This document shows positions 31,637 through 45,140 of a DNA stretch of 48,210 nt, one piece after another (the stretch's first letter is position 1; every line of letters begins with the position of its first letter). The notes beneath the pieces were generated by a model, which was given only the letters and a program-made list of their open reading frames with translations, made no database searches and was not told where the DNA came from. The stretch is from positions 1 through 48,210 of the forward strand of contig JAGXNQ010000003.1 in the NCBI GenBank assembly GCA_019894955.1, in the 5' to 3' direction. The DNA is from Promethearchaeota archaeon (lineage in GTDB: Archaea > Asgardarchaeota > Lokiarchaeia > Sigyniarchaeales > SOKP01). Both the position numbers and the translations under genes were made by a program.

Positions 31637-32233
31637 TTATAGTTGGATTTTTTGCTTAAATGAGTTAATTATATTTGATAACTCGTCCAAACGAGCATTG
31701 AAATCTTGAGGTTGTAAATTTTTAATTTTTTCAAATTTCTTAATAATGTCCTTAAATTCTTCAATCCAAATCCTCATTAAGGCTTCAGATTCTTGACCCT
31801 TAATTTTATTGCTTATTTCCTTATTTATAACTGATTTTATCGTGTCTAAGAGTTTAGCTTCATTTACAGTATAGGAAATTTTTAAAATATCCTGCTTGTT
31901 CTTAATAGTGTCAATGTCACCAAGTACATTTGATTTATGTTTGTAAAATTCTTCATTAAATTTCTTAATCATATCCATGATGATTTCTTCTTGAACCTTG
32001 ATTGTCTCTTCAATTGTATCTTGAGTTGTGTGAATCATTTTCTTGATTTCTACTGTCTCTCGTGTGATCTCATCTTCATTTTTCTTAGCTCGATATTCTA
32101 ATTTTTCGTTTACATCCTTTATCTCAATTTCGAGTTTTTTTTTCATTTCAACATTCTCTTCTGCAAGTTTATTCACCTGATCCACTAATTTTTGGAATGT
32201 TTTTAGGTTCAATTCTTCTATCTTTTTTGGCAT
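31637..32233 (-). CDS. Coiled-coil protein, unknown function
   Basis: 198 aa, rich in K, E and I, with heptad-like periodicity throughout. Its ATG overlaps the TGA of the upstream GTPase by 1 nt (TGATG). Confidence 0.6.
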   Translation of the reverse strand: MPKKIEELNLKTFQKLVDQVNKLAEENVEMKKKLEIEIKDVNEKLEYRAKKNEDEITRETVEIKKMIHTTQDTIEETIKVQEEIIMDMIKKFNEEFYKHKSNVLGDIDTIKNKQDILKISYTVNEAKLLDTIKSVINKEISNKIKGQESEALMRIWIEEFKDIIKKFEKIKNLQPQDFNARLDELSNIINSFKQKIQL

Positions 32234-33240
32234 CAGGTTTCACCTCTTTTGTTTCCATTTGAATCATTTTCAAGTTCTGGAGCAGGAAATTTACTTTCCA
32301 AGTTAAGAACTATGTTTAATTTCAATTCGAAATCGTCTTTTAGAGCTTCTAAATCAGAAGAACTTTCTTCAATCTTTTTCAAGAGTTGATCAATAGGAGT
32401 TCCCTTTATGCTAAGAATTAAATCTTTTACAAATATAAAATTCTCATAAAAAGCTTTAATCACATCAGTTTTTATCTTTTCTAATTGCAATTTATTATCT
32501 ACTGAAAGTACCGGAGTTTCGAAGGCTTTGTTATCATCAATTTCTTCTGTTACAACTTTTTTCCGAATTTTAGGGGTAATTTTCTTATGTATTGTACTGG
32601 AATCCATTGAATCTATATTAATTAATGTTCTTGTGAGTTCTTCTTCCCTCTTATCTATTAAATCTAAGAATGAAGGGATTATATCCTTGAATTTAGAAGT
32701 AAAACCTTCTGATTCAAGAGTTTTCAGAAATTTAAAGATCATTAATTCAAATGCTTCAATAACATTATCTTGTGTTTTAGCAGAAGTGAATATCAAAGGA
32801 TATTCATCCAGATTATTTTGATTCAGATTATTCAATAGACTTCCAAAAGATTCTGGTTTAACTAAATCAGATTTGTTCCCTAAATAAATTACCAAACAAT
32901 CAGGAGACTTCTCTTTAATATATTTTAGATATACTTTTTGAAGTTCAATAGTACTTTCTTTAGGATTAGATAAATCAAACACTAAAAAAGCTGCATCAAT
33001 ATTAGCAAAGAAGGATGGATTTAAAGGATTAAAAGATTTCTGTCCCCCTATATCCCATATATTAACTCGAATATGTTCATCTTCTAATTTATATTCTTTT
33101 CTTGTAATATTACTTCCTATGGTTGGAATATATATATTAGGGAATGTTTTACCAGAATATAAGTTGACGATTGAAGTCTTTCCAACTCCCCCTTCTCCTA
33201 ACACAGCGAGTTTAAGATTAATTTCATTGATAGATCTCAT
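32233..33240 (-). CDS. Rab/Ras-like small GTPase with about 170-aa C-terminal extension
   Basis: G1 GEGGVGKT, G2 PTIG, G3 WDIGGQ, G4 GNKSDL, G5 TSAK. There is no C-terminal Cys/CAAX. ATG at 33240; the ORF extends to a TTG at 33249. Confidence 0.85.
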   Translation of the reverse strand: MRSINEINLKLAVLGEGGVGKTSIVNLYSGKTFPNIYIPTIGSNITRKEYKLEDEHIRVNIWDIGGQKSFNPLNPSFFANIDAAFLVFDLSNPKESTIELQKVYLKYIKEKSPDCLVIYLGNKSDLVKPESFGSLLNNLNQNNLDEYPLIFTSAKTQDNVIEAFELMIFKFLKTLESEGFTSKFKDIIPSFLDLIDKREEELTRTLINIDSMDSSTIHKKITPKIRKKVVTEEIDDNKAFETPVLSVDNKLQLEKIKTDVIKAFYENFIFVKDLILSIKGTPIDQLLKKIEESSSDLEALKDDFELKLNIVLNLESKFPAPELENDSNGNKRGET

Positions 33241-33384
33241 TGAATCCAAAGTATCATTATCGATTTAATTTATTAGATTATAATAGGAGGTTTATTTAAA
33301 TATACACTTAGACAAAGTGTTATTCAAAATCTTTACCACCAAGTTTTTTCTAAATATATAATATACTTTTTAATGTGGGTGAAA

Positions 33385-33972
33385 TTAAGCTATATTTTTT
33401 TGATTAGAAAATTTTTTATGAGCATAAATAATGCGTTGAATAGCTGTAACATTCGATCCAATAGCTAGAAGTATCATGGTCCACCAGATAGCGTAGGGAA
33501 ACCATATTTGAAGAATAGTGCCTATTAATAGTATCGGAACCCTATCAGTACGTTCCAATAAGCCAACACCATATAGATTTTCGGTTCCTAGAGCTTCGAT
33601 TCTCGCTCTCGTATAAGATGTAAGAAAACCTCCTAATAGTGCAACCATCCCTATTTCAAATGAAGTATATGAACCTATGATCGTTCCAATCAAAATAAAA
33701 AAATCACCAATTCTATCCAATGTAGAATCTAAGAACGCACCATAAATTGTAGGTCCTTGAAGTCTTGCAACTGTCCCGTCAAGTTGATCAAAAAATTCTA
33801 CAATAAATAAGAAGATTATAATATAAGGTAATGATCGGAAATAAAATCCTATAAATGTCGCTATAGCTGATAACATGCCAAGAACTGTAAATACATTAGC
33901 AGGAATTTTTTTAAGTTTACGAGCTAATGGCAATAATAGTTTTTCAGAATACTTTTTCACTTGTAAGAGCAT
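33385..33972 (-). CDS. CDP-alcohol phosphatidyltransferase family protein
   Basis: DQLDGTVARLQGPTIYGAFLDSTLDRIGD (the D..DG..AR...G...D...D motif) in a 195-aa polytopic membrane protein. Confidence 0.85.
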   Translation of the reverse strand: MLLQVKKYSEKLLLPLARKLKKIPANVFTVLGMLSAIATFIGFYFRSLPYIIIFLFIVEFFDQLDGTVARLQGPTIYGAFLDSTLDRIGDFFILIGTIIGSYTSFEIGMVALLGGFLTSYTRARIEALGTENLYGVGLLERTDRVPILLIGTILQIWFPYAIWWTMILLAIGSNVTAIQRIIYAHKKFSNQKNIA

Positions 33973-35776: not shown

Positions 35777-37228
35777 CTATTTAATGATTATTGGTCTTTT
35801 ATCTTGCCAAGGAGATATATCTTCGAAAGCCTTTGAAACTTGAAGTACAGTTAATTCATCAAATCTCTTTCCTATAATTTGCATTCCAATAGGTAAACCA
35901 TCACTAGACCAACCACAAGGAATAGAAGCTGCGGGATGACCACTCATATTAAATGGGTAGGTAAAAGGTGTCCAACCTAAATCAGTCATATTTTTTCCAT
36001 TTATTATTATTCCTGTTTTCCTAGTTTCTTCCTCAATCATAAGTGATTTACCTAATTCAAAAGCGGGACATGCTATCGTAGGAGTTATTAGGATATCAAT
36101 TTTTTTAAATGCTCGACAAATATCTGCATAAACCATCTCTCGTTGAACTTCTGCAATCTTTAATTCTTTTGCAGAAAAAGATAATCCATGATTAATTATT
36201 TCTATCAAATCAGGTTCCATTTTATCTTTCCATTCTTTTAAATAGGGTTTTAATATATAACCGAATCCTGTGCTCCAAAGAGATAAAAATAAAGATTCGG
36301 GGTTTCTCAGCATAATTTTACTTTTCTCTATAGACCAGCCGAATTCTTCAAATTTTTGAAGCCCATTCATCACAGACGTTTCAACTTCAGGATCAAGAGC
36401 TTCTGCAAATCCTAAATCTAAAGAATAACCTATCTTTAATTTATTTAAAGTATCGTTTAACTTTTCTAAATAGCTAAAATTTGGTTTTGGTACAGAATAT
36501 CGATCAGAATCATCTTGACCTGCGATAACATCTAGGACTAAAGCTGCATCTTTAACATATCTCACAAGTGGACCTTTATGAGCGAAAGTCCCTAGATATC
36601 CCATCAACTTCATCGAATTCTGAGGAACTCGACCATAAGTTGATTTGAGACCAAAAATACCACAAAAGCAACATGGTATCCTTATAGACCCACCCCCATC
36701 TGATCCCATAGCTATTGGGCCTAAACCTGAAGCAACAGCACCAGCAGCACCCCCACTTGACCCTCCAGGAGTTCTTTCTAAATTCCATGGATTTTTAGTT
36801 ACTCCGAATATTAAATTATCTGTTTCTCCTTTATATCCAAAAGCAGGGGTATTAGTTTTACCTAAGATGACAACACCAGCATTTCTTAACCGTCTAACAA
36901 CAGCTTCATCATGCCGTGGTATGTTATTCTCAAACATCTTACTACCATAAGTTGTTCGGATTCCTTTGGTATCTGTTTCATCTTTAATCGAAACGGGTAT
37001 CCCGTGCAATAACCCCATTTTTTCTCTTTTGTTAACTGCTTCATCTGCTTTTTTTGCCATCTCTCGTGCTAATTCCAGCGTTGGAGTACAATAAGCGTTA
37101 ATAATCGGGTTTATTTTTTCAATTCTTTCTATGATTGCTTCTGTAATTTCTTGAGATGTTAACTCCTGTGTTTTAATTTTTTCTGCCATTTCGCAAGCAG
37201 ACATAAAACAAATTTCATCCCTCTTCAT
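35777..37228 (-). CDS. Amidase (amidase-signature family)
   Basis: GIPVSIKDETDTKG and GGSSGGAAGAVASG signature, then GSDGGGSIRIP. Confidence 0.9.
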   Translation of the reverse strand: MKRDEICFMSACEMAEKIKTQELTSQEITEAIIERIEKINPIINAYCTPTLELAREMAKKADEAVNKREKMGLLHGIPVSIKDETDTKGIRTTYGSKMFENNIPRHDEAVVRRLRNAGVVILGKTNTPAFGYKGETDNLIFGVTKNPWNLERTPGGSSGGAAGAVASGLGPIAMGSDGGGSIRIPCCFCGIFGLKSTYGRVPQNSMKLMGYLGTFAHKGPLVRYVKDAALVLDVIAGQDDSDRYSVPKPNFSYLEKLNDTLNKLKIGYSLDLGFAEALDPEVETSVMNGLQKFEEFGWSIEKSKIMLRNPESLFLSLWSTGFGYILKPYLKEWKDKMEPDLIEIINHGLSFSAKELKIAEVQREMVYADICRAFKKIDILITPTIACPAFELGKSLMIEEETRKTGIIINGKNMTDLGWTPFTYPFNMSGHPAASIPCGWSSDGLPIGMQIIGKRFDELTVLQVSKAFEDISPWQDKRPIIIK

Positions 37229-37536
37229 ATTTTCAGATAATAATGTTATCTAATTTAAATTTTTTGAATTTTTTGTCAACAATCTTTAGTTTTTTAAATT
37301 ATAATCTATTGTTTATGTTCATGCTTATATGACATTTAAGGAATTTCAATATTACATTAATTCCATTAGAAATAGTATAATTGAGAAAATTGGTCAATTA
37401 GAAAATAAATGTTAGATTCATTTTTCTTTTTTTTATAAAATCTTACAAGATCGATAAGTTAAATATATTTTCGAAAAAGAAACAATTCTTATATAAAAAA
37501 ATTATTTATAAGATTAATAATAAGAGAAATAAAAGG

Positions 37537-37809
37537 ATGATAGAAATAATTATCAGTGTTATTAGCGCTTTTTTCTTAATAAGTTTACATTTTTATCTGA
37601 CCAGAAAAATAAAAAATCATACTACCATTCTGTTGATTTCAATGAGCTTGCTTGTAATATTGCTATTATTCAATTTATTTATCATTAGCCCTATCATTAA
37701 TTTTATCATTACATTTACAATATTTACGATTCTCCTTCTTTTAATTTTTGAAGTAATTAAAACATCACGTGCATTATCTCTATTTCAAGAAGAAAAAATC
37801 AAGGAATAA
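37537..37809 (+). CDS. Small membrane protein
   Basis: 90 aa with three hydrophobic helices. It ends 24 nt upstream of the next membrane-protein gene on the same strand. Confidence 0.4.
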   Translation: MIEIIISVISAFFLISLHFYLTRKIKNHTTILLISMSLLVILLLFNLFIISPIINFIITFTIFTILLLLIFEVIKTSRALSLFQEEKIKE

Positions 37810-37833
37810 TTATCATAAAAAAGAGAGTTAACT

Positions 37834-39285
37834 ATGCTAGCAATATTATTATTACTCGAGATGATAATCCTTTTAGTAACTGGTATTTCTATCGTTTTCC
37901 TAAACCAACAAATTAAGAGAATAAAAATCATATTTTGGACAATATTTTCTACACTCATTATCAATACCTTTTCATTGTTGATGATATTATTTATGAATAT
38001 ACAAAATTATGAGTTTTATTTAATTATTGATGGAAATACCCTATTTATCGCAGAATTCATACTATTAGGTGGTATATTTTACGCCATACTTTCCAAAAAT
38101 AATTCAGTAAATCCAATTCATGATGGAATTTCACTACTAATTTTAGCAGGAATTATTGGCTTTGTCTCGTCTTCGCACTTATTAATTCTATGTTCATGGT
38201 TTGCATTTATACTTGTTTTGTTAGGTGTTAATCTCTTTTATGGGGAAGTAGCTATCGATTTCAAAAATGTTGGCCCCTATTTTTTAACTATTGGAATTAG
38301 CCTGACTGCTCTCTATATATTTGGTATCATTATTTTCCTCGATACTGGAACAATCAATATCATTGAAATTATAAATATTGGTGTATCTAATGAATTTAAT
38401 TTTATTTATCTCATTCTAATTATAATAGGATTTGGCTTACCATTTGGAATTTTCCCTATTTGTGGTATTCATTTAAAAAAACTATTCCAAGATGGATCCT
38501 ATTTTAATTTATCATTTTACTTACTGATAAATTATTCAATAATCTTCAATCTATTTAGATCGTTTCAATTTTTTAAAAATTTGTCATTAGGATTTGGATT
38601 ATTTGTCACCATCATTTCACTTCTGGGTATAATTATTCTTTCCTATATTATATTAAAACTCTTATTCTATTCTTATGAAGAAAAAATGCTCTCTCTTAAA
38701 ATAATAATGGGGTACTCAATAACTGGCGATTTTAATAATTTCTTAATGTTATTCTCAGTATCATTATTAATCCCTAATTATATGAAAGAAACGTATCTGA
38801 ATGGTCTTTTTTTAGTTTTTTCTTTATTCATATTAGTTAAATTGCTGATTATTACTAATTTATATCCCATGATCTTAACGCAAGAAGATGATCATATAAA
38901 AAAAGAGAAAGGGAAAAGATATTCAAAATTCTTAAGATGTTTATTATATTTTTCAGGAGCAAAAATCGCATTTCCTTTAAGTTTTTATTCATCTTGGCTT
39001 TTGGTAGTAGTATTGAATAGTCCAGAAGTGCAATCCAATTCGGCTTTTATTTTTCTCATCATGCTAATCATAATTTTACATTTAATTTATAACACGATTT
39101 CTCTTTTAACTATATCAACTATTAACATCGAAACTCATAATGAAGAAATTCTTAATACAAGGAAAGAGTTAGAATTATTTGATATTAGTTTTGAAAGTAA
39201 AATTGTGATTTTTTTTATATATTGTATATGTATTCTAATCAATGTTTTATTTTTCTTAAATCTCTTTTCTTATATTCTTCTTTAA
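37834..39285 (+). CDS. Polytopic integral membrane protein (12 or more helices), unknown function
   Basis: 483 aa, hydrophobic almost throughout. I could verify no diagnostic transporter motif. Confidence 0.6.
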   Translation: MLAILLLLEMIILLVTGISIVFLNQQIKRIKIIFWTIFSTLIINTFSLLMILFMNIQNYEFYLIIDGNTLFIAEFILLGGIFYAILSKNNSVNPIHDGISLLILAGIIGFVSSSHLLILCSWFAFILVLLGVNLFYGEVAIDFKNVGPYFLTIGISLTALYIFGIIIFLDTGTINIIEIINIGVSNEFNFIYLILIIIGFGLPFGIFPICGIHLKKLFQDGSYFNLSFYLLINYSIIFNLFRSFQFFKNLSLGFGLFVTIISLLGIIILSYIILKLLFYSYEEKMLSLKIIMGYSITGDFNNFLMLFSVSLLIPNYMKETYLNGLFLVFSLFILVKLLIITNLYPMILTQEDDHIKKEKGKRYSKFLRCLLYFSGAKIAFPLSFYSSWLLVVVLNSPEVQSNSAFIFLIMLIIILHLIYNTISLLTISTINIETHNEEILNTRKELELFDISFESKIVIFFIYCICILINVLFFLNLFSYILL

Positions 39286-39294
39286 AATAAGAAA

Positions 39295-40848
39295 TTAAAT
39301 CTTAAGCTCGTTTTCTACAAATACTGTAGCTACCATTTCAAGGTCTTCATTTGTGATAGAACGAGATAATGCTGTTTGTAAATCGGTGAGTAATTGTTTA
39401 CATAAATTGATGCTTAACGAACTTCCTTTTTGTTCAATTAATTTTTGCAACTCTAATGGATAATCAATTTTGCCAATTGCTTCGTCATCTTTAGATTTTT
39501 CAATAATGAAATTAGTATACTCTTTTGGCTTATCTGGTTTAAATTCCTTCTCTTTTGGTTTGATTTTGATTTTAATATCATCAGGAGTTAAATATTGAGA
39601 TATCTTTTCCTTATCTTCTTTTGTAAATAGAGTGAGATCTTCGATTTTTGATGTTTCTGAACTGATAATATTTTCTCGTTTGGGGGGTGGGGTGATTTGA
39701 GGTGTAATAGAATTTGATTTATTTCTTAATTGACTGGTAGGTAAACTTTTTACCATGGGCTTCTCAGAAAATTCGATTTTTCCTGGTACTTTAAACTTCC
39801 GCTTGCTTTCACGAATTTTCCTTAATTTATTTTGTTCTTCTATTTTGGATTGTATTTCTACTACTTTATTCTTAAATGTTTGAATATAGTCCAGATCTTG
39901 ATAATGACTTGAAATTTTAATCAATTCTTTATATTTTACTATTGATAAAACAAAATTTCCTTCAAGCTCTAATCTTTCTGCTTGATTCATCATTTCTGGG
40001 AAATCTTTAGGTAGAGTTTCTTTAAGATTAAGTGATTTAGATATAATCGAATTAATTCGTTGTTTCACCTCTTGATCAACTAATGATAATTCAAAAAAAT
40101 CATCCATATCTAACTCATTTTTAATTAATTTCAAGTCAGAATCTTCAACTAGATCTCGTTTATTACCAATAATTACCAATTTGGATAGCTTTCCTTCTTG
40201 CTTTTGCAGGGTTTTAAAATGATCTATCACTCTTATGTGGTAATTTGAAAGATCAAACAAGAGTATTATGAGATCTGATCCACTAATAAATTTGGACCAT
40301 AGAAGTGAGAAATTATCTTTAAGTTGAAAATCCCACATATCAAAATTTAGATTTTCAATACTATAGTTTGATGAAACAGCAAAATTCATTATTTCTTTAG
40401 TTTCTCCCTTTTTAAGAAGATAAAATAGTTCAGTTTTTCCTGCATTTGTTGGACCAATGATAACTAATTTAGAATGTAGTTCATGTTGTAGGGGTTTCAA
40501 GTATTCTACAAAATTTTCTTTTTGAGATGTAGATTCCAAAATCTCATTTGGTAACTGAAATAGTTCATCGAATTTCTCGATAGTTTTGAGTATTATTGGT
40601 TCCATCCTATTAAGTTGATCTACGAGATCAGTTACAAACATGAACAATACGTTCTTACTGGAACGGTGGAATATTTGATAATTAGTAACAGAACGCTGAA
40701 ATGTTTTTCCAGGCATTGGCAAATCTAAATGAGATTGTATGATTTTTGTTACATTTGTTAATTCCTCGTCCCCAAGACCCATTGCATAAGAATGATTAAA
40801 AATACAAGCATTCTTATGAAAAATATGAATTTGTCTTAACATGATCAT
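39295..40848 (-). CDS. Longin-like N-terminal domain + Arf-like small GTPase domain (degenerate switch II) + long C-terminal extension
   Basis: The N-terminus IHIFHKNACIFNHSY..NYQIFHRSSKNVLFMFVTDLVDQLNRMEPIILKTIEKFDELF follows the sigma-adaptin/longin pattern (cf. NFKIIYRRYAGLYFCICVD..AYLEAIHNFVEVLNEYF). GTPase motifs are the P-loop GPTNAGKT and NKxD GNKRDL. The Arf-type [13 protein letters not shown] reads WDFQLKDNFSLLW here. ATGs at 40848 and 40842; GTG at 40851. Confidence 0.75.
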   Translation of the reverse strand: MIMLRQIHIFHKNACIFNHSYAMGLGDEELTNVTKIIQSHLDLPMPGKTFQRSVTNYQIFHRSSKNVLFMFVTDLVDQLNRMEPIILKTIEKFDELFQLPNEILESTSQKENFVEYLKPLQHELHSKLVIIGPTNAGKTELFYLLKKGETKEIMNFAVSSNYSIENLNFDMWDFQLKDNFSLLWSKFISGSDLIILLFDLSNYHIRVIDHFKTLQKQEGKLSKLVIIGNKRDLVEDSDLKLIKNELDMDDFFELSLVDQEVKQRINSIISKSLNLKETLPKDFPEMMNQAERLELEGNFVLSIVKYKELIKISSHYQDLDYIQTFKNKVVEIQSKIEEQNKLRKIRESKRKFKVPGKIEFSEKPMVKSLPTSQLRNKSNSITPQITPPPKRENIISSETSKIEDLTLFTKEDKEKISQYLTPDDIKIKIKPKEKEFKPDKPKEYTNFIIEKSKDDEAIGKIDYPLELQKLIEQKGSSLSINLCKQLLTDLQTALSRSITNEDLEMVATVFVENELKI

Positions 40849-41070
40849 CACTTATATGTTAATCAAGGGATATCAATATTCTTTATAATCATATAAAAAA
40901 CTCTTATTAATATATGTTAATATCATATGAACCTAAAAGTTTTAGCATCAATTTAGGTGACTGCAGAAATCAAATATGAACTATTAATTAAATGAAATGA
41001 AAGATTTTTTTTACCTTGAAATGTTTATAGAATTAAATTCTTGTAACATTAAAATTTACTGATCAATTTA

Positions 41071-42006
41071 ATGCCTTTAACAGCACATCACTTAAGGAAC
41101 TTATTAAAAGAAACACAGTTAGATAAGGAAATTGATGAGCTCACTGAATTAATGGTCAAAAGAATAAACCAACTTTGTTTTGAAGATTGCCAGATTGATC
41201 GAATTGCTTGCACGCTCCAACCAAAATGTAGACAAAGATGGCTCTTAAAATTAAGGTTACTAAACAAATTATCATTAGAAGATCAACCTAAATTTTGCTA
41301 TAGTGTTCATAAGAATATTCTTTTTCGCGACAAAAACAACAAAACAGTTGTCTATAAGCCAACTGATGCCTATTTATACACGATTGATTTTTTAGATGTT
41401 TTTTTCCATGGGGATTATCGAAAATTAAATCTCTATTTCTCAAAAAAACAGTATAAAAATTGTATTAAAATATTTAAAGATCGAATCAATAATAGAGGCG
41501 ACCATTTTCAATATCTATTAACAAATAAAGAAAATTTTATGATATTCAAATTTGATGAAAAAATTCACGTAATGTTTCTTAATGAAAACTATGTATTATC
41601 TAATGCTAATAGAGATAATATTACAAATGTAGAACTACTAAAAGGAATATGTGAATTATTTGCTATGCTCCACTTTCCAGAATTCAAATTAAAATTAGAT
41701 ACTGATAATAGAATTGAAATTAAAAGCATAATTCCTGTAGATATTTTATTAAAAGTGATATCCAAACCACCCGAAACAAAAGATAACAAAATTGATGAGT
41801 ATTTCTGGAATATTTTTTCAACTGACCTTGATGCTTTAAGTCAACATTGTAAAGAAATCAAATTATATATGAATAAACAAAATGATTTAGTTATAAAAAT
41901 ATACCTTGATGTGAATTCTACACATCTAATAAGATATAGAGATTTGCGATTAATTTTTAATATAATTTATCGGATTTATAATGATTATTACATAATTTGG
42001 GCATAA
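41071..42006 (+). CDS. Hypothetical protein (311 aa), no recognisable family
   Basis: Long ORF with ordinary composition. It is divergent from the longin-GTPase gene and lies 26 nt upstream of the HEAT/coiled-coil gene, so they probably form an operon. Confidence 0.55.
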   Translation: MPLTAHHLRNLLKETQLDKEIDELTELMVKRINQLCFEDCQIDRIACTLQPKCRQRWLLKLRLLNKLSLEDQPKFCYSVHKNILFRDKNNKTVVYKPTDAYLYTIDFLDVFFHGDYRKLNLYFSKKQYKNCIKIFKDRINNRGDHFQYLLTNKENFMIFKFDEKIHVMFLNENYVLSNANRDNITNVELLKGICELFAMLHFPEFKLKLDTDNRIEIKSIIPVDILLKVISKPPETKDNKIDEYFWNIFSTDLDALSQHCKEIKLYMNKQNDLVIKIYLDVNSTHLIRYRDLRLIFNIIYRIYNDYYIIWA

Positions 42007-42032: not shown

Positions 42033-43280
42033 ATGAGTGAAGATAAAGATAAAGAAAAAGACCCAGAATTAACTAAAATTAAAGATTTCATCCACGACAA
42101 AAGATTTGATGATGTTGTTCAAATTATAGCATTGTATTTAGCTGATTCTACAGATGAAAATTACCTAGATCGATTAGAAAATTTAATCGAAACATTGCTA
42201 ACTCTACATGGAGGTAGAACAGTTTTAAGATTTTTAATTGAGCAACTTGTTATTGATTTACCATCATTATTAGAAAATTTATCGAAAAGAGACTCCGTCC
42301 TAAGATATTCATTCCTACTTTTATTAAAACCCTTTTGTGAAAATGAATGTGATTTATTCATGCCCTTCATAGAAGATCTTATAAATTCAGAAGATCCTAA
42401 TATTCGTGAGGCCGCATTACAGTTGGTTATTTTTATGGCAGGAGGAGATAAAGGGATCGACGATGAATCAATTATCAACTCAATTTCAACTAAATTAACT
42501 GATGAAAAGGAATTTATTATTGAAAAAGGAATTCAAACACTTAAAGCAATAGGGAAATCTTACCCTTCCTTAGTTAGAAGAGTTCTAACTAATATAGTAA
42601 AAGAAAATGCAGAGAATGAAGAATTAAAACAAGCCGCTGATTTGGTCATAAAAGCAATAGTTACAGTAGATCAGATTGAAGAAATTGTTGAAGACGAACT
42701 TACAGAATCAGAGATCATTGAAAAAGAAGAAGATGAGATTAACGACAAAGAAATCGAATTAAAGAAAAAGGAAATTGAACTAAAGAAAAAGAAACTAGAA
42801 CTTGAAGAAAAACTAATGGATGAAAAAGAAAAAAGTTTAAAATTTAAAGAAGAAATTATTGATCGAGAAGTTGAGATTACCCCTGACCATGAAGATTTAC
42901 CAAAAAAATTAAAAAAACAAATCAAGAAAGATGAAAATGAGTTATTTGATAAAGAAATTGAACTTAAAAAGAAAGGCATTGAGATAAAAAAGAAGAAACT
43001 TGAAATTGAATTAAAAGAAAAAGAATTTGAAGAAATATCTATTCAAGAAAGAGAAAAGACACTCAAAATTAAAGAACAACTATTGGAAAAAGAATCTGAA
43101 CTATCTCATGTAGAGCTTGAACTACAACAGAAAAAAATTGAAGAAAAGGAGAAAAAACTTAGAAAAACAGAAGTAGAACATGCTGAAGAGATTTTTAAAG
43201 AATTAGAAAAATCTCAAGAAGAAAAACAAGAATCAAATAAAGAAGAGGATAATAATAATCACAAAGAATTACATGAATAA
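42033..43280 (+). CDS. HEAT/ARM-like helical-repeat N-domain + E/K-rich coiled-coil C-domain
   Basis: HEAT-like units (SEDPNIREAALQLVIFMAGGD; EKGIQTLKAIGKSYPSLVRRVL; VLRYSFLLLLKPFCE) in residues about 20-215. From about residue 220 onward there is a charged coiled coil with an internal duplication. Confidence 0.65.
   Translation: MSEDKDKEKDPELTKIKDFIHDKRFDDVVQIIALYLADSTDENYLDRLENLIETLLTLHGGRTVLRFLIEQLVIDLPSLLENLSKRDSVLRYSFLLLLKPFCENECDLFMPFIEDLINSEDPNIREAALQLVIFMAGGDKGIDDESIINSISTKLTDEKEFIIEKGIQTLKAIGKSYPSLVRRVLTNIVKENAENEELKQAADLVIKAIVTVDQIEEIVEDELTESEIIEKEEDEINDKEIELKKKEIELKKKKLELEEKLMDEKEKSLKFKEEIIDREVEITPDHEDLPKKLKKQIKKDENELFDKEIELKKKGIEIKKKKLEIELKEKEFEEISIQEREKTLKIKEQLLEKESELSHVELELQQKKIEEKEKKLRKTEVEHAEEIFKELEKSQEEKQESNKEEDNNNHKELHE
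42744..43010 (+). repeat. Internal in-frame duplication within the coiled-coil region (units start 42744 and 42948, 204 nt apart)
   Basis: DKEIELKKKEIELKKKKLELEEK..EKSLKFKEEI compared with DKEIELKKKGIEIKKKKLEIELKEK..EKTLKIKEQL. The similarity is also visible at DNA level (gacaaagaaatcgaattaaagaaaaagg / gataaagaaattgaacttaaaaagaaagg). Confidence 0.6.
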
Positions 43281-43281
43281 A

Positions 43282-44328
43282 TCAAACTGAATCATCTTCC
43301 TCATCCAATTCATCAAAATCGATGCTTGATTGAGCCTTATTTTCTGATATTGGAGCAGCATGTAACCTTCTTACTAGTTTTCTTACACTCTCCAATCGCA
43401 TGCTATCTTGTGGTAATCCTAACTGTACTTTTTTTGCAAGCTTATATGCTAACTCTATATATTGTAAATCTTCTAAAAACTCTACAATTTGTATCTTATA
43501 ATCAGTATCGTCTACTCCTTCTCCATATTCCATCAGTTTTTCCTTTAATAGTATATCAATTTTATCAGATCTTTCAACGTATTTTAGATTTTTCACTAAT
43601 TGCTTAAAGCTATTCATTATGTTATACATTTCTGATTTTGGATAATCATCAATATTTTTAAGTACATAGAAAATATATAACTCTGCTTTTTCATAACGTT
43701 GCATTATAATTGATATTTCTACGAGATCTAGAAGAGCTAATTCATAGAGAAACTTTGATTCAATCCTTGGAATAATCATTTCAAAAATCCAATCTAACAA
43801 ATTAATCTGTTCATACTGCTTTATTATATCAATTAGAAATCGTTCCACAGTATAATAAAGTTTAGAGTTTTCAGTTTTAGTAGAAGAGAGAAACGATACT
43901 AAAACATATTTAATTCTACCCATTGCATCTTCAATATTAATCGGTTTCTCGCCGAACTTGTAAAATGCAGATTCCAAAATAGGTTTCACTTTATCTTGAT
44001 TCTTAAAATCGTAAATGAAGTATTCACCCCAATTAGGAGATCGTGCAGTAGCTGATTTCATCTTTTTTCCCTCTTTTGGGAGTCTTTCTGTTTTTGGTTT
44101 CGCTGCCTTTAACTTTTCTGATAGATCTGTTGCTTCTTCTTCTGATATTACTTCTAAAATTATTTTATCTTGTTTTGTAGTAATTGATAAACGAAAAAAT
44201 GTATCTTGATCTTCTTCAAATAATAGATCTCTAAGATCTTTAGGAAAGGTAATACCTGTTTTAGTTTTCTTTAAAACACATTCATAAATAAGATCTTGAT
44301 CTTCCTCATCTATTTTTTTTTCTAACAT
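43282..44328 (-). CDS. Hypothetical protein: AbrB/SpoVT-like N-terminus, all-helical body, acidic C-terminal tail
   Basis: KKTKTGITFPKDLRDLLFEEDQDTFFRLSITTKQDKIILEVI resembles a swapped-hairpin AbrB domain. The body is helical and the C-terminus is SIDFDELDEEDDSV. Its stop is 1 nt from the stop of the convergent gene 42033-43280. Confidence 0.55.
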   Translation of the reverse strand: MLEKKIDEEDQDLIYECVLKKTKTGITFPKDLRDLLFEEDQDTFFRLSITTKQDKIILEVISEEEATDLSEKLKAAKPKTERLPKEGKKMKSATARSPNWGEYFIYDFKNQDKVKPILESAFYKFGEKPINIEDAMGRIKYVLVSFLSSTKTENSKLYYTVERFLIDIIKQYEQINLLDWIFEMIIPRIESKFLYELALLDLVEISIIMQRYEKAELYIFYVLKNIDDYPKSEMYNIMNSFKQLVKNLKYVERSDKIDILLKEKLMEYGEGVDDTDYKIQIVEFLEDLQYIELAYKLAKKVQLGLPQDSMRLESVRKLVRRLHAAPISENKAQSSIDFDELDEEDDSV

Positions 44329-44392: not shown

Positions 44393-44986
44393 TTATCCTG
44401 TTATATGGACTAATTCTACTCCACGTACATCAAAATTTTTATCAATAAAACATAGAACAACATGACCCTCATGTACGTAAACGATGGGAACTGGATATGA
44501 TTCTGCATTATTGATGAAACTTCTCTTTACAATTAGTGGTTTAGTAACATTACAAACCATGCAAGGAATATTAACAACTTTGATTAAATCTCTTTCTTCA
44601 AAATTGTCTAATAATTCTTCAATCTCAATTTCAAATTTATTAAAAATACCAGGAGAGAAATTGTCATATGATAATATATAATCTACGGCATATTTTTTAT
44701 TGAATTCGACTGATACTTCCTCAATAATAGCTTCTAATAATTGGAATTGCATTTCAATATTCGAACCTGCGGAATAAATAATATTTCCCTTACGTATATG
44801 CACAATTTTTAGGTTACCTTTATTCATGTGAAAAAAAATATCACTCATTGGATTCTGTTTGCTTACGTTTAAATCTAAAATGAAACTTTTATATGATCCC
44901 TTAGGTTTGTATTCAAATAACGTAAATTCTTCATTACTGATATTAATGAATTCTAAGTTATTCAATATATTCTTAATATTTAGCAT
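44393..44986 (-). CDS. Hypothetical protein with longin/roadblock-like N-domain and small Cys/His-containing C-domain
   Basis: NLKIVHIRKGNIIYSAGSNIEMQFQLLEAIIEEVSVEFNKKY matches the strand-strand-helix pattern of longin/roadblock folds. The C-terminal part is VNIPCMVCNVTKPLIV..PIVYVHEGHVVLCFIDKNFDVRGVELV. ATG at 44986; TTG at 44995. Confidence 0.5.
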   Translation of the reverse strand: MLNIKNILNNLEFINISNEEFTLFEYKPKGSYKSFILDLNVSKQNPMSDIFFHMNKGNLKIVHIRKGNIIYSAGSNIEMQFQLLEAIIEEVSVEFNKKYAVDYILSYDNFSPGIFNKFEIEIEELLDNFEERDLIKVVNIPCMVCNVTKPLIVKRSFINNAESYPVPIVYVHEGHVVLCFIDKNFDVRGVELVHITG

Positions 44987-45140
44987 ATGAATCAATATTT
45001 TATGTCTAGGATAATATTGAGGGTCTTATGGTTATATAAAACGCTTAATCAAATATAAAGAACTTGAATATTTATATATGCATAAATTAGATAAATTAGA
45101 TGATGACCAACCGATAATTTAAAAAGGAGAAAGTTATAGA

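What the first reader, a model, noticed from the sequence alone, without database searches (positions are those of the whole stretch)
39295..40848. Arf-like GTPase domain with intact P-loop and NKxD but substituted switch II (DVGGQ -> DFQLK)
Seen in sequence: FDMWDFQLKDNFSLLWSKFISGSDLIILLFDLS aligns residue for residue with Arf [33 protein letters not shown]. The invariant DxxG glycine and the catalytic Gln are replaced by Leu and Lys. GPTNAGKT (G1) and GNKRDL (G4) are retained. Established knowledge: the DxxG glycine contacts the gamma-phosphate and the Gln is needed for hydrolysis in Arf/Ras-type GTPases. Inference: this protein probably binds nucleotide but hydrolyses poorly or not at all. 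It may be a pseudo-GTPase or a permanently on scaffold, fused in cis to a longin domain that could act as its own partner. It also carries a C-terminal extension of about 270 aa, which contains a TPPPK stretch.
Basis: partly seen in the sequence, partly recalled or inferred. Interest (0 to 1): 0.65.

Follow-up and report, generated by a model that had tools for sequence, protein, structure and literature searches.

The report
Switch-dead longin-fused GTPase of Lokiarchaeia
This Asgard-archaeal gene encodes a longin domain fused to a GTPase-like domain that keeps its nucleotide-binding motifs but has lost, in every orthologue, the residues that sense and hydrolyse GTP, so it probably works as a nucleotide-holding scaffold rather than an on/off switch.

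Summary
The ORF at 39295-40851 (-) encodes a 518-aa protein with four regions: a sigma-adaptin-like longin domain, an Arf-profile G domain, a helical region followed by a disordered Pro/Lys linker, and a small C-terminal helical domain.

G1 (GPTNAGKT), G4 (NKRD) and G5 are intact. Switch II reads WDFQLKD where relatives read WDFAGQE, and no DxxG occurs anywhere in the protein. The switch I threonine is also gone (VPTITG becomes IMNF-A).

This is not decay or a sequencing error. Across 131 orthologues, LKDNFSLLWSKF is the most conserved 12-residue stretch of the whole protein.

The gene is single-copy in 119 of 135 genomes of its own family. Sister families carry more eroded versions, with G4 becoming [TS]Hxx and one lineage losing the P-loop as well. 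Canonical longin-GTPase paralogues are the sister clade.

The gene stays linked to three or four uncharacterised genes, one of them a HEAT/coiled-coil protein, even at about 30% identity.

Best reading: a conserved pseudoGTPase variant of the published Asgard longin-GTPase fusions. It probably binds guanine nucleotide but cannot switch, and acts as a scaffold. No biochemistry has been done.

The parts
39295..40851 (-). Whole CDS, 518 aa plus stop. The listed start is GTG at 40851; the probable real start is ATG at 40842 (MLRQIH...).
40498..40842 (-). N-terminal longin domain, residues 4-118, with topology beta-beta-alpha-beta-beta-beta-alpha-alpha. Closest matches are AP-complex sigma subunits and the VAMP7 longin domain.
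   Evidence: AF2 model of this domain has pLDDT 93. Foldseek against PDB hits AP2/AP1 sigma, VAMP7, mu2-N, zeta-COP and Bet5/Trs23 at TM 0.6-0.7. The profile against PDB gives AP2 sigma E=0.0017 and VAMP7 E=0.005. Pfam Clat_adaptor_s matches 4 of 34 members and Fuz_longin_1 matches 2 of 34.
40027..40476 (-). G domain (small-GTPase fold), residues 126-275.
   Evidence: Pfam Arf E=8.2e-12. PDB phmmer finds Arl5/Arf1. The AF2 full-length model searched with Foldseek hits Arf/Rab/Rho structures.
40432..40455 (-). G1 / P-loop GPTNAGKT, retained. Weighted conservation in 131 orthologues: G133, P134 and G138 at 1.0, K139 at 0.95, T140 at 0.88.
40369..40401 (-). Switch I remnant TKEIMNFAVSS. The conserved Thr of canonical paralogues (VPTITG) is replaced by IMNF-A with a one-residue deletion. 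I154, F157 and A158 are nearly invariant.
40288..40335 (-). Substituted switch II / helix alpha2, WDFQLKDNFSLLWSKF. D174 (Walker B Asp) is kept. L177 replaces the DxxG Gly and K178 replaces the catalytic Gln. Residues 177-188 are the most conserved 12-residue window of the protein.
40153..40164 (-). G4 NKRD, retained (N230 at 0.95, K231 at 1.0, D233 at 0.92).
40081..40089 (-). G5-equivalent LSL. S256 (0.97) aligns with Arf1 Ala160.
39796..40002 (-). Three-helix region, residues 284-352, with the conserved motif A..E.EGN...AI.KYKELI.I. The hairpin is TPR/MIT-like and is followed by a long helix.
   Evidence: pLDDT 85-93. Weak hits to OGT TPR (E=0.003), Sulfolobus Vps4 MIT 2w2u (E=0.012) and calpain-7 MIT. 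Pfam MIT matches 3 of 26 members. hhalign against Asgard Vps4 MIT gives probability 47%, which is inconclusive.
39466..39795 (-). Variable Pro/Lys-rich linker, predicted disordered, residues 353-462. Short conserved islands: KF.(V/I)PGKI.F, VK.LP and EDLTLF.
   Evidence: pLDDT 30-45. Conservation 0.38. Alignment.
39298..39465 (-). Conserved C-terminal three-helix domain, residues 463-518 (LQ.LIE.KGSSLS..LC..L...L...L.R.LT.ED...AA..F). No known family.
41071..42006 (+). Linked gene 1, divergently transcribed: a 311-aa orphan protein with invariant Cys residues (C36, C40, C53, C76).
   Evidence: Synteny kept in the window's own family and in the sister family. Alignment A5. No PDB or Pfam hit.
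42033..43280 (+). Linked gene 2: a 415-aa protein with a PBS-type HEAT solenoid and an E/K-rich coiled coil.
43282..44328 (-). Linked gene 3: a 348-aa orphan protein. In the sister family it sits directly upstream of the GTPase gene and is co-directional with it.
44393..44995 (-). Linked gene 4: a 200-aa orphan with an invariant CxxC...HxGH...C set. Linkage was seen only within the window's own family.

Best explanation
The gene encodes the family-f1 orthologue of a single-copy protein specific to one order of Lokiarchaeia. Its architecture is a sigma-adaptin-like longin domain, a G domain, a helical region with a flexible linker, and a small C-terminal helical domain.

The G domain is a pseudoGTPase that still binds nucleotide. 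It keeps the phosphate-binding P-loop, the Walker-B Asp, the guanine-specificity motif NKxD and G5. It has lost both universal gamma-phosphate sensors (the switch I Thr and the switch II DxxG Gly) and the catalytic Gln.

It therefore most likely holds a guanine nucleotide as a structural cofactor. It cannot perform the canonical GTP/GDP 'loaded-spring' conformational switch or efficient hydrolysis. The frozen switch II/alpha2 surface, the best-conserved part of the protein, serves as a fixed protein-protein interface. That interface could bind the longin domain of the same protein, or the products of the three or four genes that stay linked to it: a 311-aa Cys-rich orphan, a HEAT/coiled-coil protein, a 348-aa orphan and a 200-aa orphan.

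Shown: motif states, their conservation, their derived origin, the folds, the taxonomic distribution and the synteny. Inferred: nucleotide binding, lack of hydrolysis, the scaffold role and the identity of the partners.
For: Register and substitutions. There is no DxxG anywhere in the protein.

Loss of the switch I Thr: canonical paralogues read VPTITG, while this clade reads IMNF-A.

Purifying selection: over 131 orthologues, residues 177-188 are the most conserved 12-residue window (0.886). P-loop G133, P134 and G138 score 1.0, K231 scores 1.0, N230 scores 0.95 and D233 scores 0.92.

Derived state: the tree gives (this family + the more eroded sister form) as a clade with SH-aLRT 98, sister to canonical longin-GTPases (WDFAGQE, NKQD), rooted on single-domain GTPases.

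Graded erosion in orthologues of sister families:
- G4 becomes [TS]Hxx.
- One closed genome has the P-loop destroyed (GPNYTDRQ) and the Walker-B D changed to N, yet keeps the SPLW switch II helix.
- This series shows that the conserved function does not need hydrolysis.

Arf-profile scores fall in step with the erosion: 67-74 bits in canonical paralogues, 45 bits here and, for three of the four scored, 19-26 bits in the eroded form.

Distribution: single copy in 119 of 135 genomes of its own family and 12 genomes of sister families, and none in the other genomes sampled, most of them from other orders.

Folds.

Linkage: orf311, HEAT415 and orf348 stay linked to the gene at about 30% identity although the gene order is rearranged, while linkage to the housekeeping neighbours (SpoU methylase, M32 peptidase) is lost.

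Precedent: the AAGAB pseudoGTPase binds the sigma (longin) subunits of AP1/AP2 as a pure interaction module (PMC12490416; PDB 9ddt_B is among the fold hits).
Against: No biochemistry was done, so nucleotide binding and lack of hydrolysis are predictions from motifs.

K178 (72% conserved) or a residue supplied in trans could support a non-canonical hydrolysis mechanism.

Two cluster representatives have GRT instead of GKT in the P-loop, and sister lineages lose G4 and G1. Nucleotide binding may therefore already be dispensable, which would make even this lineage functionally nucleotide-free.

The AF2 confidence for switch II is only moderate (pLDDT 65-77), and I could not inspect coordinates. 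No contact between switch II and the longin domain or any partner has been shown.

Synteny suggests functional linkage but does not prove a physical complex. The neighbouring proteins have no recognisable families.

The tree included the motif columns themselves.
Confidence: 0.6

Rival explanations
1. It is a non-canonical but active GTPase. Hydrolysis and switching persist through other residues, for example Lys178 or Asp179 in cis, the invariant N-terminal Arg of the longin domain (MLRQ), or a finger from a linked gene product. This would resemble HAS-GTPases or dimerisation-activated GTPases.
For: G1, G4, G5 and the Walker-B Asp are strongly conserved, as would be expected if nucleotide chemistry still mattered. 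An Arg at position 3 of the longin domain is nearly invariant across the canonical and substituted clades. Longin domains with Arg fingers act as GAPs in eukaryotes (PMC12290439).
Against: As far as I know (established knowledge, not tested here), known non-canonical GTPases keep the switch I Thr and the DxxG Gly; both are absent here. K178 is only 72% conserved, being replaced by D, N, Q or H in orthologues. Orthologues in sister families lose G4 and even the P-loop while keeping the rest of the protein and its gene neighbourhood. The MLRQ Arg is equally conserved in lineages with a destroyed P-loop, so it is not there for catalysis.
Confidence: 0.13
2. It is locked permanently 'on' in the GTP-bound form, like Rnd or RhoH proteins. 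It would bind GTP, never hydrolyse it, and present an active-like switch conformation to effectors.
For: The catalytic Gln is lost while G1 and G4 are retained. That is the pattern seen in constitutively GTP-bound atypical GTPases (established knowledge).
Against: The canonical active conformation is held by the switch I Thr and the backbone NH of the switch II Gly contacting the gamma-phosphate (established knowledge). Both are replaced here, and Rnd and RhoH keep them. The lost Thr is also a Mg2+ ligand in the GTP state. The best fold matches of the model include several GDP-form Arf structures. That is weak evidence.
Confidence: 0.1
3. It is already a nucleotide-free pseudoGTPase in this lineage. 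On this reading the intact P-loop and NKxD are kept for structural reasons only.
For: The orthologous group tolerates loss of G4 and G1 in sister lineages. There are GRT P-loop variants inside the family. AAGAB shows that a G fold can work without nucleotide (PMC12490416).
Against: G133, P134, G138 and K231 are invariant, and K139, N230 and D233 are at or above 0.92 across 131 orthologues that have diverged to 35-40% identity. That is hard to explain without ligand binding.
Confidence: 0.12
4. It is an artefact: a sequencing or assembly error, a decaying pseudogene, or a misaligned motif with the real DxxG elsewhere.
For: None was found. The only decayed copy seen is in another genome: the G256 match is interrupted by stop codons.
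Against: The frame is open over 518 codons. The motif is identical or near-identical in 131 orthologues from independent assemblies. There is no D..G anywhere in the protein. The register agrees between HMMER and MAFFT.
Confidence: 0.01

Closest known systems
Longin-fused 'Arf-like' small GTPases of Lokiarchaeia. Klinger et al. 2016, as summarised in Dey et al. 2016 (PMC4917890), report five longin domains fused to Arf-like GTPases. Tran et al. 2024 (PMC10933270) report longin-GTPase architectures among the 74 GTPases of strain MK-D1.
   Same: Same architecture (N-terminal longin plus a G domain that scores best against Arf) and same taxon. Canonical members of this group are the sister clade of the present family.
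   Different: This clade has lost the G2 Thr, the G3 Gly and the Gln. It has its own C-terminal helical/linker/three-helix extension. It is single-copy and sits in a conserved gene cluster. No paper in the searchable library combines 'pseudoGTPase' with 'Asgard'.
AAGAB pseudoGTPase domain bound to AP1/AP2 sigma subunits (Wang et al. 2025, PMC12490416; PDB 9ddt).
   Same: A G-fold domain without catalytic function works as a protein-interaction module together with a sigma-type longin domain. AP sigma subunits are the best sequence and structure matches of the longin domain here.
   Different: AAGAB binds no nucleotide (class i). It is a separate polypeptide from sigma, and it uses the face opposite the switches. 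No sequence homology to AAGAB was shown here. In this protein the nucleotide-binding motifs are intact and the two domains are fused.
Atypical nucleotide-binding Ras-superfamily proteins with non-canonical G2/G3, such as the RGK proteins Gem/Rad/Rem, and Rnd/RhoH. This comparison rests on my own knowledge; the papers listed were not read in detail.
   Same: G1 and G4 are kept while the switch and catalytic residues are replaced. The expected behaviour is nucleotide binding without a classical switch.
   Different: These are eukaryotic, unrelated lineages without a longin fusion. Rnd and RhoH keep the Thr and the DxxG Gly, which this protein lacks.
GTPase-plus-longin/roadblock platforms: Rag/Gtr-Ragulator, MglA-MglB and SRbeta-SRalpha (SRX).
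   Same: A small G domain is functionally paired with a longin/roadblock-fold domain. There is weak partial similarity to SRPRB (E=7.5e-4, below the cut-off).
   Different: In those systems the GTPase is a working switch and the longin/roadblock module is a partner, a GEF/GAP, or a C-terminal dimerisation domain. Here the longin domain is N-terminal and in cis, and the G domain has no sensors. The query has no Gtr1_RagA hit.
Eukaryotic Arf family and Asgard ArfR proteins (Vargova et al., bioRxiv 10.1101/2024.02.28.582541).
   Same: Best Pfam profile match is Arf. The WD...LW framework of the interswitch/switch II region is shared.
   Different: There is no N-terminal amphipathic helix and no WDxGGQ. 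Arf1 groups with the outgroup in my tree. The earlier 'Arf-like' (ArfL) group of Asgard GTPases is stated by Vargova et al. not to be directly related to Arf.

Membership tests
Small GTPase fold (Ras superfamily G domain) | Significant profile match and a predicted G fold | tested here: met
   Pfam Arf E=8.2e-12, Roc 1.1e-8 and Ras 2.9e-7. There are 124 PDB GTPase sequences at E<0.01. Foldseek of the AF2 model hits Arf/Rab/Rho structures.
Small GTPase fold (Ras superfamily G domain) | All five G motifs in canonical form (G1 GxxxxGK[ST], G2 Thr, G3 DxxG, G4 [NT]KxD, G5 SA-like) | tested here: not met
   G1, G4 and G5 are present. The G2 Thr and the G3 Gly are absent, and there is no DxxG in the protein.
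Arf family sensu stricto (Arf/Arl/Sar/ArfR) | N-terminal amphipathic helix immediately before the G domain | tested here: not met
   The N-terminus is a 115-residue longin domain.
Arf family sensu stricto (Arf/Arl/Sar/ArfR) | WDxGGQ switch II with catalytic Gln, and the interswitch toggle | tested here: not met
   The motif is WDFQLKD. The toggle cannot be tested in silico.
Arf family sensu stricto (Arf/Arl/Sar/ArfR) | Phylogenetic placement with Arf/ArfR | tested here: inconclusive
   In one search, Arf1 and an Arf-like single-domain protein fall in the outgroup, away from the longin-GTPase clades. No ArfR or ArfL reference sequences were available to include.
Asgard longin-GTPase fusions | N-terminal longin fold | tested here: met
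   pLDDT 93. Foldseek hits AP sigma, VAMP7, mu-N, zeta-COP and TRAPP longins. Profile E=0.0017 to AP2 sigma.
Asgard longin-GTPase fusions | Fused G domain, with homology over both domains to canonical longin-GTPases | tested here: met
   Canonical relatives (WDFAGQ, NKQD) align from residue 1 to about 375 at 23-28% identity with E values of 1e-22 to 1e-8. They form the sister clade.
Asgard longin-GTPase fusions | Restricted to Asgard archaea / Lokiarchaeia | tested here: met
   131 of 400 genomes of the phylum carry it, all in one order. Source names are Lokiarchaeota/Promethearchaeota MAGs.
PseudoGTPases | G fold with evolutionarily fixed loss of residues required for catalysis or switching | tested here: met
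PseudoGTPases | Experimentally absent GTP hydrolysis, and a defined nucleotide-binding status | not testable with these tools
   Needs purified protein. The motifs predict binding without hydrolysis.
Rag/Gtr GTPases | Gtr1_RagA-type G domain plus a C-terminal roadblock dimerisation domain | tested here: not met
   The query has no Gtr1_RagA hit. The C-terminal part is helical or disordered, not roadblock.
MIT domain (ESCRT-III-binding three-helix bundle), considered for residues 284-352 | Significant profile match to MIT over three helices | tested here: inconclusive
   The PDB profile gives Sulfolobus Vps4 MIT E=0.012 and calpain-7 MIT E=0.036, but OGT TPR scores E=0.003. Pfam MIT matches 3 of 26 members at E about 0.03. 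A Pfam MIT search of the own genome does not find this protein. hhalign against Asgard Vps4 MITs gives probability 47% over 29 columns.
AP-complex sigma subunits (Clat_adaptor_s), considered for the longin domain | Match above the family threshold, and membership of an adaptor tetramer | tested here: inconclusive
   Sigma subunits are the best hits by sequence and by structure. Only 4 of 34 members reach Pfam E<=1, with a best E of 6.3e-5. No adaptin-type large subunit was detected: the neighbouring HEAT protein matches only generic PBS-HEAT/alphaRep repeats.

The most novel reading that the evidence does not exclude
The conserved module may be an archaeal analogue, or distant forerunner, of the eukaryotic adaptor/coat 'hemicomplex' or of its AAGAB-type assembly chaperone. 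The module consists of a sigma-adaptin-like longin domain fused to a switch-dead Arf-like domain, a HEAT-solenoid/coiled-coil protein, and two or three orphan proteins. On this reading, a longin domain held by a solenoid is coupled to a G-fold domain that has been converted from a recruiting switch into a permanent structural subunit. The graded series canonical > sensors lost > G4 lost > P-loop lost would then record the birth of a pseudoenzyme subunit inside a complex.
Probability: 0.08. Interest if true: 0.85.

Novelty: new variant of a known kind. Interest (0 to 1): 0.5.

Why it matters
Asgard archaea carry very large families of small GTPases, and these are usually read as evidence for eukaryote-like switching and trafficking. 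This case shows that one conserved, single-copy member of the published longin-GTPase fusions is not a switch at all. It has been kept for a long time as a pseudoGTPase.

Its orthologues show successive stages of motif loss while the protein, its switch II surface and its gene neighbourhood are preserved. That has three consequences:
- It cautions against counting every Asgard G domain as a working switch.
- It provides a natural series for studying how a GTPase becomes a structural subunit.
- It provides a small, testable set of candidate partners, with orthologues in closed genomes of the same order that may belong to cultured strains.

It does not by itself reveal a new kind of system.

Tried and rejected
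MIT-domain identity of residues 284-352. I suspected this from the A..EGN..AI.KY pattern. Hits were weak and mixed TPR and MIT. The Pfam MIT search of the genome misses the protein. hhalign against Asgard Vps4 MITs gives 47%. I left it as 'TPR/MIT-like, inconclusive'.

C-terminal three-helix domain. No PDB or Pfam family was found.

Neighbouring proteins. orf311, orf348 and orf200 gave no credible PDB or Pfam match. The Drt3a hit at E=0.02 lies in a low-complexity Lys-rich stretch and was ignored.

HEAT neighbour as an adaptin-like large subunit. It hits only generic alphaRep/PBS-HEAT repeats, so I found no specific support.

Rag-like or SRbeta-like identity. There is no Gtr1_RagA hit, and SRPRB is partial and below the cut-off.

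Sequencing error or pseudogene. Rejected.

Tools and limits:
- Model coordinates are not exposed, so I could not check whether switch II contacts the longin domain, or what fills the gamma-phosphate site.
- One locus translation (L021) contained a stop and was dropped from alignment A7.
Full report
What is there. The window is AT-rich (26-36% G+C). The ORF at 39295-40851 on the minus strand encodes 518 residues from a GTG. All relatives begin MLRQ, so the real start is probably the ATG at 40842. Pfam places an Arf-type G domain at residues 119-273 (E=8.2e-12, 45.4 bits against a cut-off of 22.3), with weaker Roc and Ras matches. NCBIfam gives only the generic small_GTP domain, below its cut-off.

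The register. phmmer against all PDB sequences finds 124 small GTPases, with Arl5 and Arf1 best. It aligns FDMWDFQLKDNFSLLWSKFISGSDLIILLFD with (S)[31 protein letters not shown] without a gap. A MAFFT alignment with Arf1 and 80 relatives gives the same register. There is no D..G anywhere in the protein. GPTNAGKT and NKRD are present at the stated places, with coordinates checked.

The switch I threonine is gone too. Canonical paralogues read (H)VPTITG at this position, while this protein and all its orthologues read IMNF-A with a one-residue deletion. The two HMMER alignments put either Ile154 or Ala158 at the Thr position, and never a Thr or Ser.

It is not decay. The search for homologous proteins returned 303 proteins. 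The best 120 listed are nearly all full-length (most 485-521 aa) at 46-82% identity, from Lokiarchaeota/Promethearchaeota MAGs. In a 32-sequence alignment, W173, D174, F175, D179, N180, F181, S182 and W185 are invariant, and L177 and K178 are at 90% or above. Over 131 orthologues with sequence weighting, LKDNFSLLWSKF (177-188) is the most conserved 12-residue window of the entire protein (0.886). The next are DLIILLFDLSNY and the P-loop strand. P-loop G133, P134 and G138 and G4 K231 are invariant. K139, N230 and D233 are at or above 0.92, and T140 is at 0.88. Position 176 (Q) is variable, and K178 is only 72% conserved (D, N, Q or H also occur). The fixed elements are therefore a bulky hydrophobic residue in place of the Gly, followed by the DNFS.LW helix.

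Where it came from. An exhaustive HMMER search of 1.84 billion cluster representatives shows three shells:
- Shell 1, the orthologues: WDFQLKDNFS, IMNF-A and NKxD.
- Shell 2, 28-35% identity and 570-800 aa: WDF(V/I)ExDDFSPLW, the same IMNF-A, and G4 degraded to [TS]Hxx.
- Shell 3, about 25% identity and aligned from residue 1 through the longin and G domains: fully canonical GFSGVGKT / VPTITG / WDFAGQE / NKQD.

Arf-profile scores fall in the same order: 67-74 bits, then 45 bits, then 19-26 bits for three of the four shell-2 proteins scored. A maximum-likelihood tree rooted on single-domain GTPases recovers shells 1 and 2 as one clade (SH-aLRT 98), sister to shell 3 (98). A member that keeps NKQD sits at the base of the substituted clade. 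The simplest history is one loss of the Thr, Gly and Gln in a canonical longin-GTPase, followed by later erosion of G4. The caveats are that this was a quick tree and that the motif columns were not removed.

Distribution. In 400 genomes of the phylum, 131 have a match at E<=1e-30, almost always exactly one. These comprise 119 of 135 genomes of the window's own family (shell 1) and 12 genomes of sister families of the same order (shell 2). The other 269 sampled genomes have none, and most of them belong to other orders. Shell 2 is therefore the orthologue in sister families, not a paralogue. Three of those genomes are closed. Their proteins read WDFVESDDYS/LTHKN and WDFIARDDFS/LTHAD. In the third, the P-loop itself is destroyed (GPNYTDRQ) and the Walker-B Asp is Asn, while the SPLW helix remains. 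The orthologous group thus shows a graded series from nucleotide-competent to fully dead. This argues that its conserved job needs neither hydrolysis nor, in the end, nucleotide. In the window's own family, however, G1 and G4 are clearly still under selection.

The other domains. The full-length AF2 model (pLDDT 73.6) gives these regions:
- residues 5-118: beta-beta-alpha-beta-beta-beta-alpha-alpha
- residues 126-275: a G fold
- residues 284-352: three confident helices
- residues 353-462: a disordered segment
- residues 464-516: a three-helix bundle

Foldseek of the whole model returns only GTPases.

Longin domain. The N-terminal domain modelled alone reaches pLDDT 93. It matches AP2/AP1 sigma, the VAMP7 longin domain, mu2-N, zeta-COP, Bet5/Trs23 and LAMTORs at TM 0.6-0.7. 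Its sequence profile hits AP2 sigma (E=0.0017, in register over 82 residues) and VAMP7. A few members hit Pfam Clat_adaptor_s, Fuz_longin_1, Longin and SRP-alpha_N. The longin assignment is therefore confirmed. One of the fold hits is the AAGAB pseudoGTPase:AP1-sigma3 complex, a eukaryotic case in which a dead G domain works with a sigma-type longin as a pure binding module (PMC12490416).

Helical region and C-terminal domain. The helical region has a TPR/MIT-like hairpin, but MIT identity is inconclusive. The C-terminal domain has no known family. The conserved islands there are KF.(V/I)PGKI.F, VK.LP and EDLTLF.

Context. In three orthologous loci at 46-53% identity, the gene lies in the same seven-gene arrangement as in the window: SpoU methylase, a 200-aa gene, a 348-aa gene, HEAT-415, a 311-aa gene, the GTPase gene (divergent) and M32 peptidase. 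In the sister family, at about 30% identity, the housekeeping neighbours are gone and the order is shuffled. Even so, homologues of orf348, orf311 and HEAT-415 are still adjacent, and orf348 is now directly upstream and co-directional. That pattern points to functional linkage rather than mere shared ancestry of gene order. The partners are orphans at sequence level. The HEAT protein matches only generic PBS-HEAT repeats.

Mechanism. In all classical G proteins, the main-chain NH groups of the switch I Thr and the switch II Gly hold the gamma-phosphate, and their release after hydrolysis is the switch. The Thr also ligates Mg2+ in the GTP state, and the Gln positions the attacking water. This is established knowledge. 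All three are replaced here, while the P-loop, the Walker-B Asp, NKxD and G5 remain. I therefore conclude the following:
- With about 0.6 confidence for the whole statement, the domain binds a guanine nucleotide as a structural ligand but neither switches nor hydrolyses.
- Its highly conserved, now rigid switch II/alpha2 face is a permanent interaction surface within a complex formed with the linked gene products and/or its own longin domain.
- A GTP-locked 'on' state, a cryptic non-canonical GTPase and an already nucleotide-free protein are the live rivals. An artefact is excluded.

Relation to the literature. Longin domains fused to Arf-like GTPases in Lokiarchaeum, and longin-GTPase architectures in MK-D1, are published (PMC4917890; PMC10933270). 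Vargova et al. state that the older 'Arf-like' (ArfL) group is not directly related to eukaryotic Arfs. No paper in the searchable library pairs 'pseudoGTPase' with 'Asgard'. Earlier notes of this scan describe what appears to be the sister-family orthologue (DFIAR/THAD) and its conserved cluster. I found the same motifs independently in locus L019. I class the finding as a new variant of a known kind: interesting to specialists in Asgard cell biology and pseudoenzymes, but not a new type of system.

Noticed in passing
window 41071-42006 (+): The divergently transcribed 311-aa orphan has invariant Cys residues (C36, C40, C53, C76, and C47 at 90% or above) across orthologues down to 24% identity. 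This may be a metal or Fe-S site. It has no PDB or Pfam match.
   Followed up: partly
window 44393-44995 (-): The 200-aa orphan has an invariant C145-x2-C148 ... H175-x-G-H178 ... C182 set, which looks like a zinc site. It is linked to the cluster only within the window's own family. No PDB match.
   Followed up: partly
window 43282-44328 (-): The 348-aa orphan has an invariant N-terminal KKTKTG(I/V)TFPK.LR motif, like an AbrB/SpoVT hairpin. In the sister family this gene sits immediately upstream of the GTPase gene on the same strand.
   Followed up: partly
window 31637-33972 (-): A second conserved trio lies nearby: a 338-aa Arf/Gtr1_RagA-type GTPase (32233-33249), a 198-aa coiled-coil ORF whose start overlaps its stop (31637-32233), and a CDP-alcohol phosphatidyltransferase (33385-33972). 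The three are syntenic in L001 and L004, and the GTPase and coiled-coil genes also in L023.
   Followed up: no
window 35777-39285: Two membrane-protein genes (37537-37809 and 37834-39285) and an amidase gene (35777-37228) lie between the GTPase gene and the M32 peptidase gene. In more distant orthologous loci those two genes are adjacent. At least the 483-aa membrane-protein gene is found only in the window's close relatives (L005-L009), with weak homologues in L011, L015 and L021; the amidase gave no hit in any fetched locus.
   Followed up: partly
window 40834-40842 (-), residues 4-6 (MLR): The N-terminal MLR(Q) of the longin domain, including the Arg, is nearly invariant across canonical, substituted and fully dead relatives. 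Eukaryotic GAP longins carry an Arg finger in the beta1-beta2 region, but the conservation here does not depend on a working active site.
   Followed up: no
L017:9975-12239 (closed 4.36-Mb genome G135): In this lineage the orthologue has lost the P-loop (GPNYTDRQ), the Walker-B Asp (LWNF) and G4 (LTHAH). It is still a 754-aa open frame next to the orf348 homologue.
   Followed up: partly
G256:C10:25004-26499 (not fetched): The orthologue in this same-genus genome is interrupted by several in-frame stops (4 TAG and 1 TAA, then 1 TGA and 1 TAA). This is either a real pseudogene or an assembly problem.
   Followed up: no
window 39466-39795 (-), linker: Short conserved islands lie in an otherwise variable disordered linker: KF.(V/I)PGKI.F (residues 352-361), VK.LP (367-371) and EDLTLF (404-409). 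They look like short linear binding motifs.
   Followed up: no
source names: Public records name orthologues inconsistently ('ADP-ribosylation factor-like protein', 'Rab family GTPase', 'GTPase SAR1 family protein', 'hypothetical'). One record is attributed to a 'Candidatus Nanopelagicaceae bacterium' MAG, which is probably a mis-binned contig.
   Followed up: no
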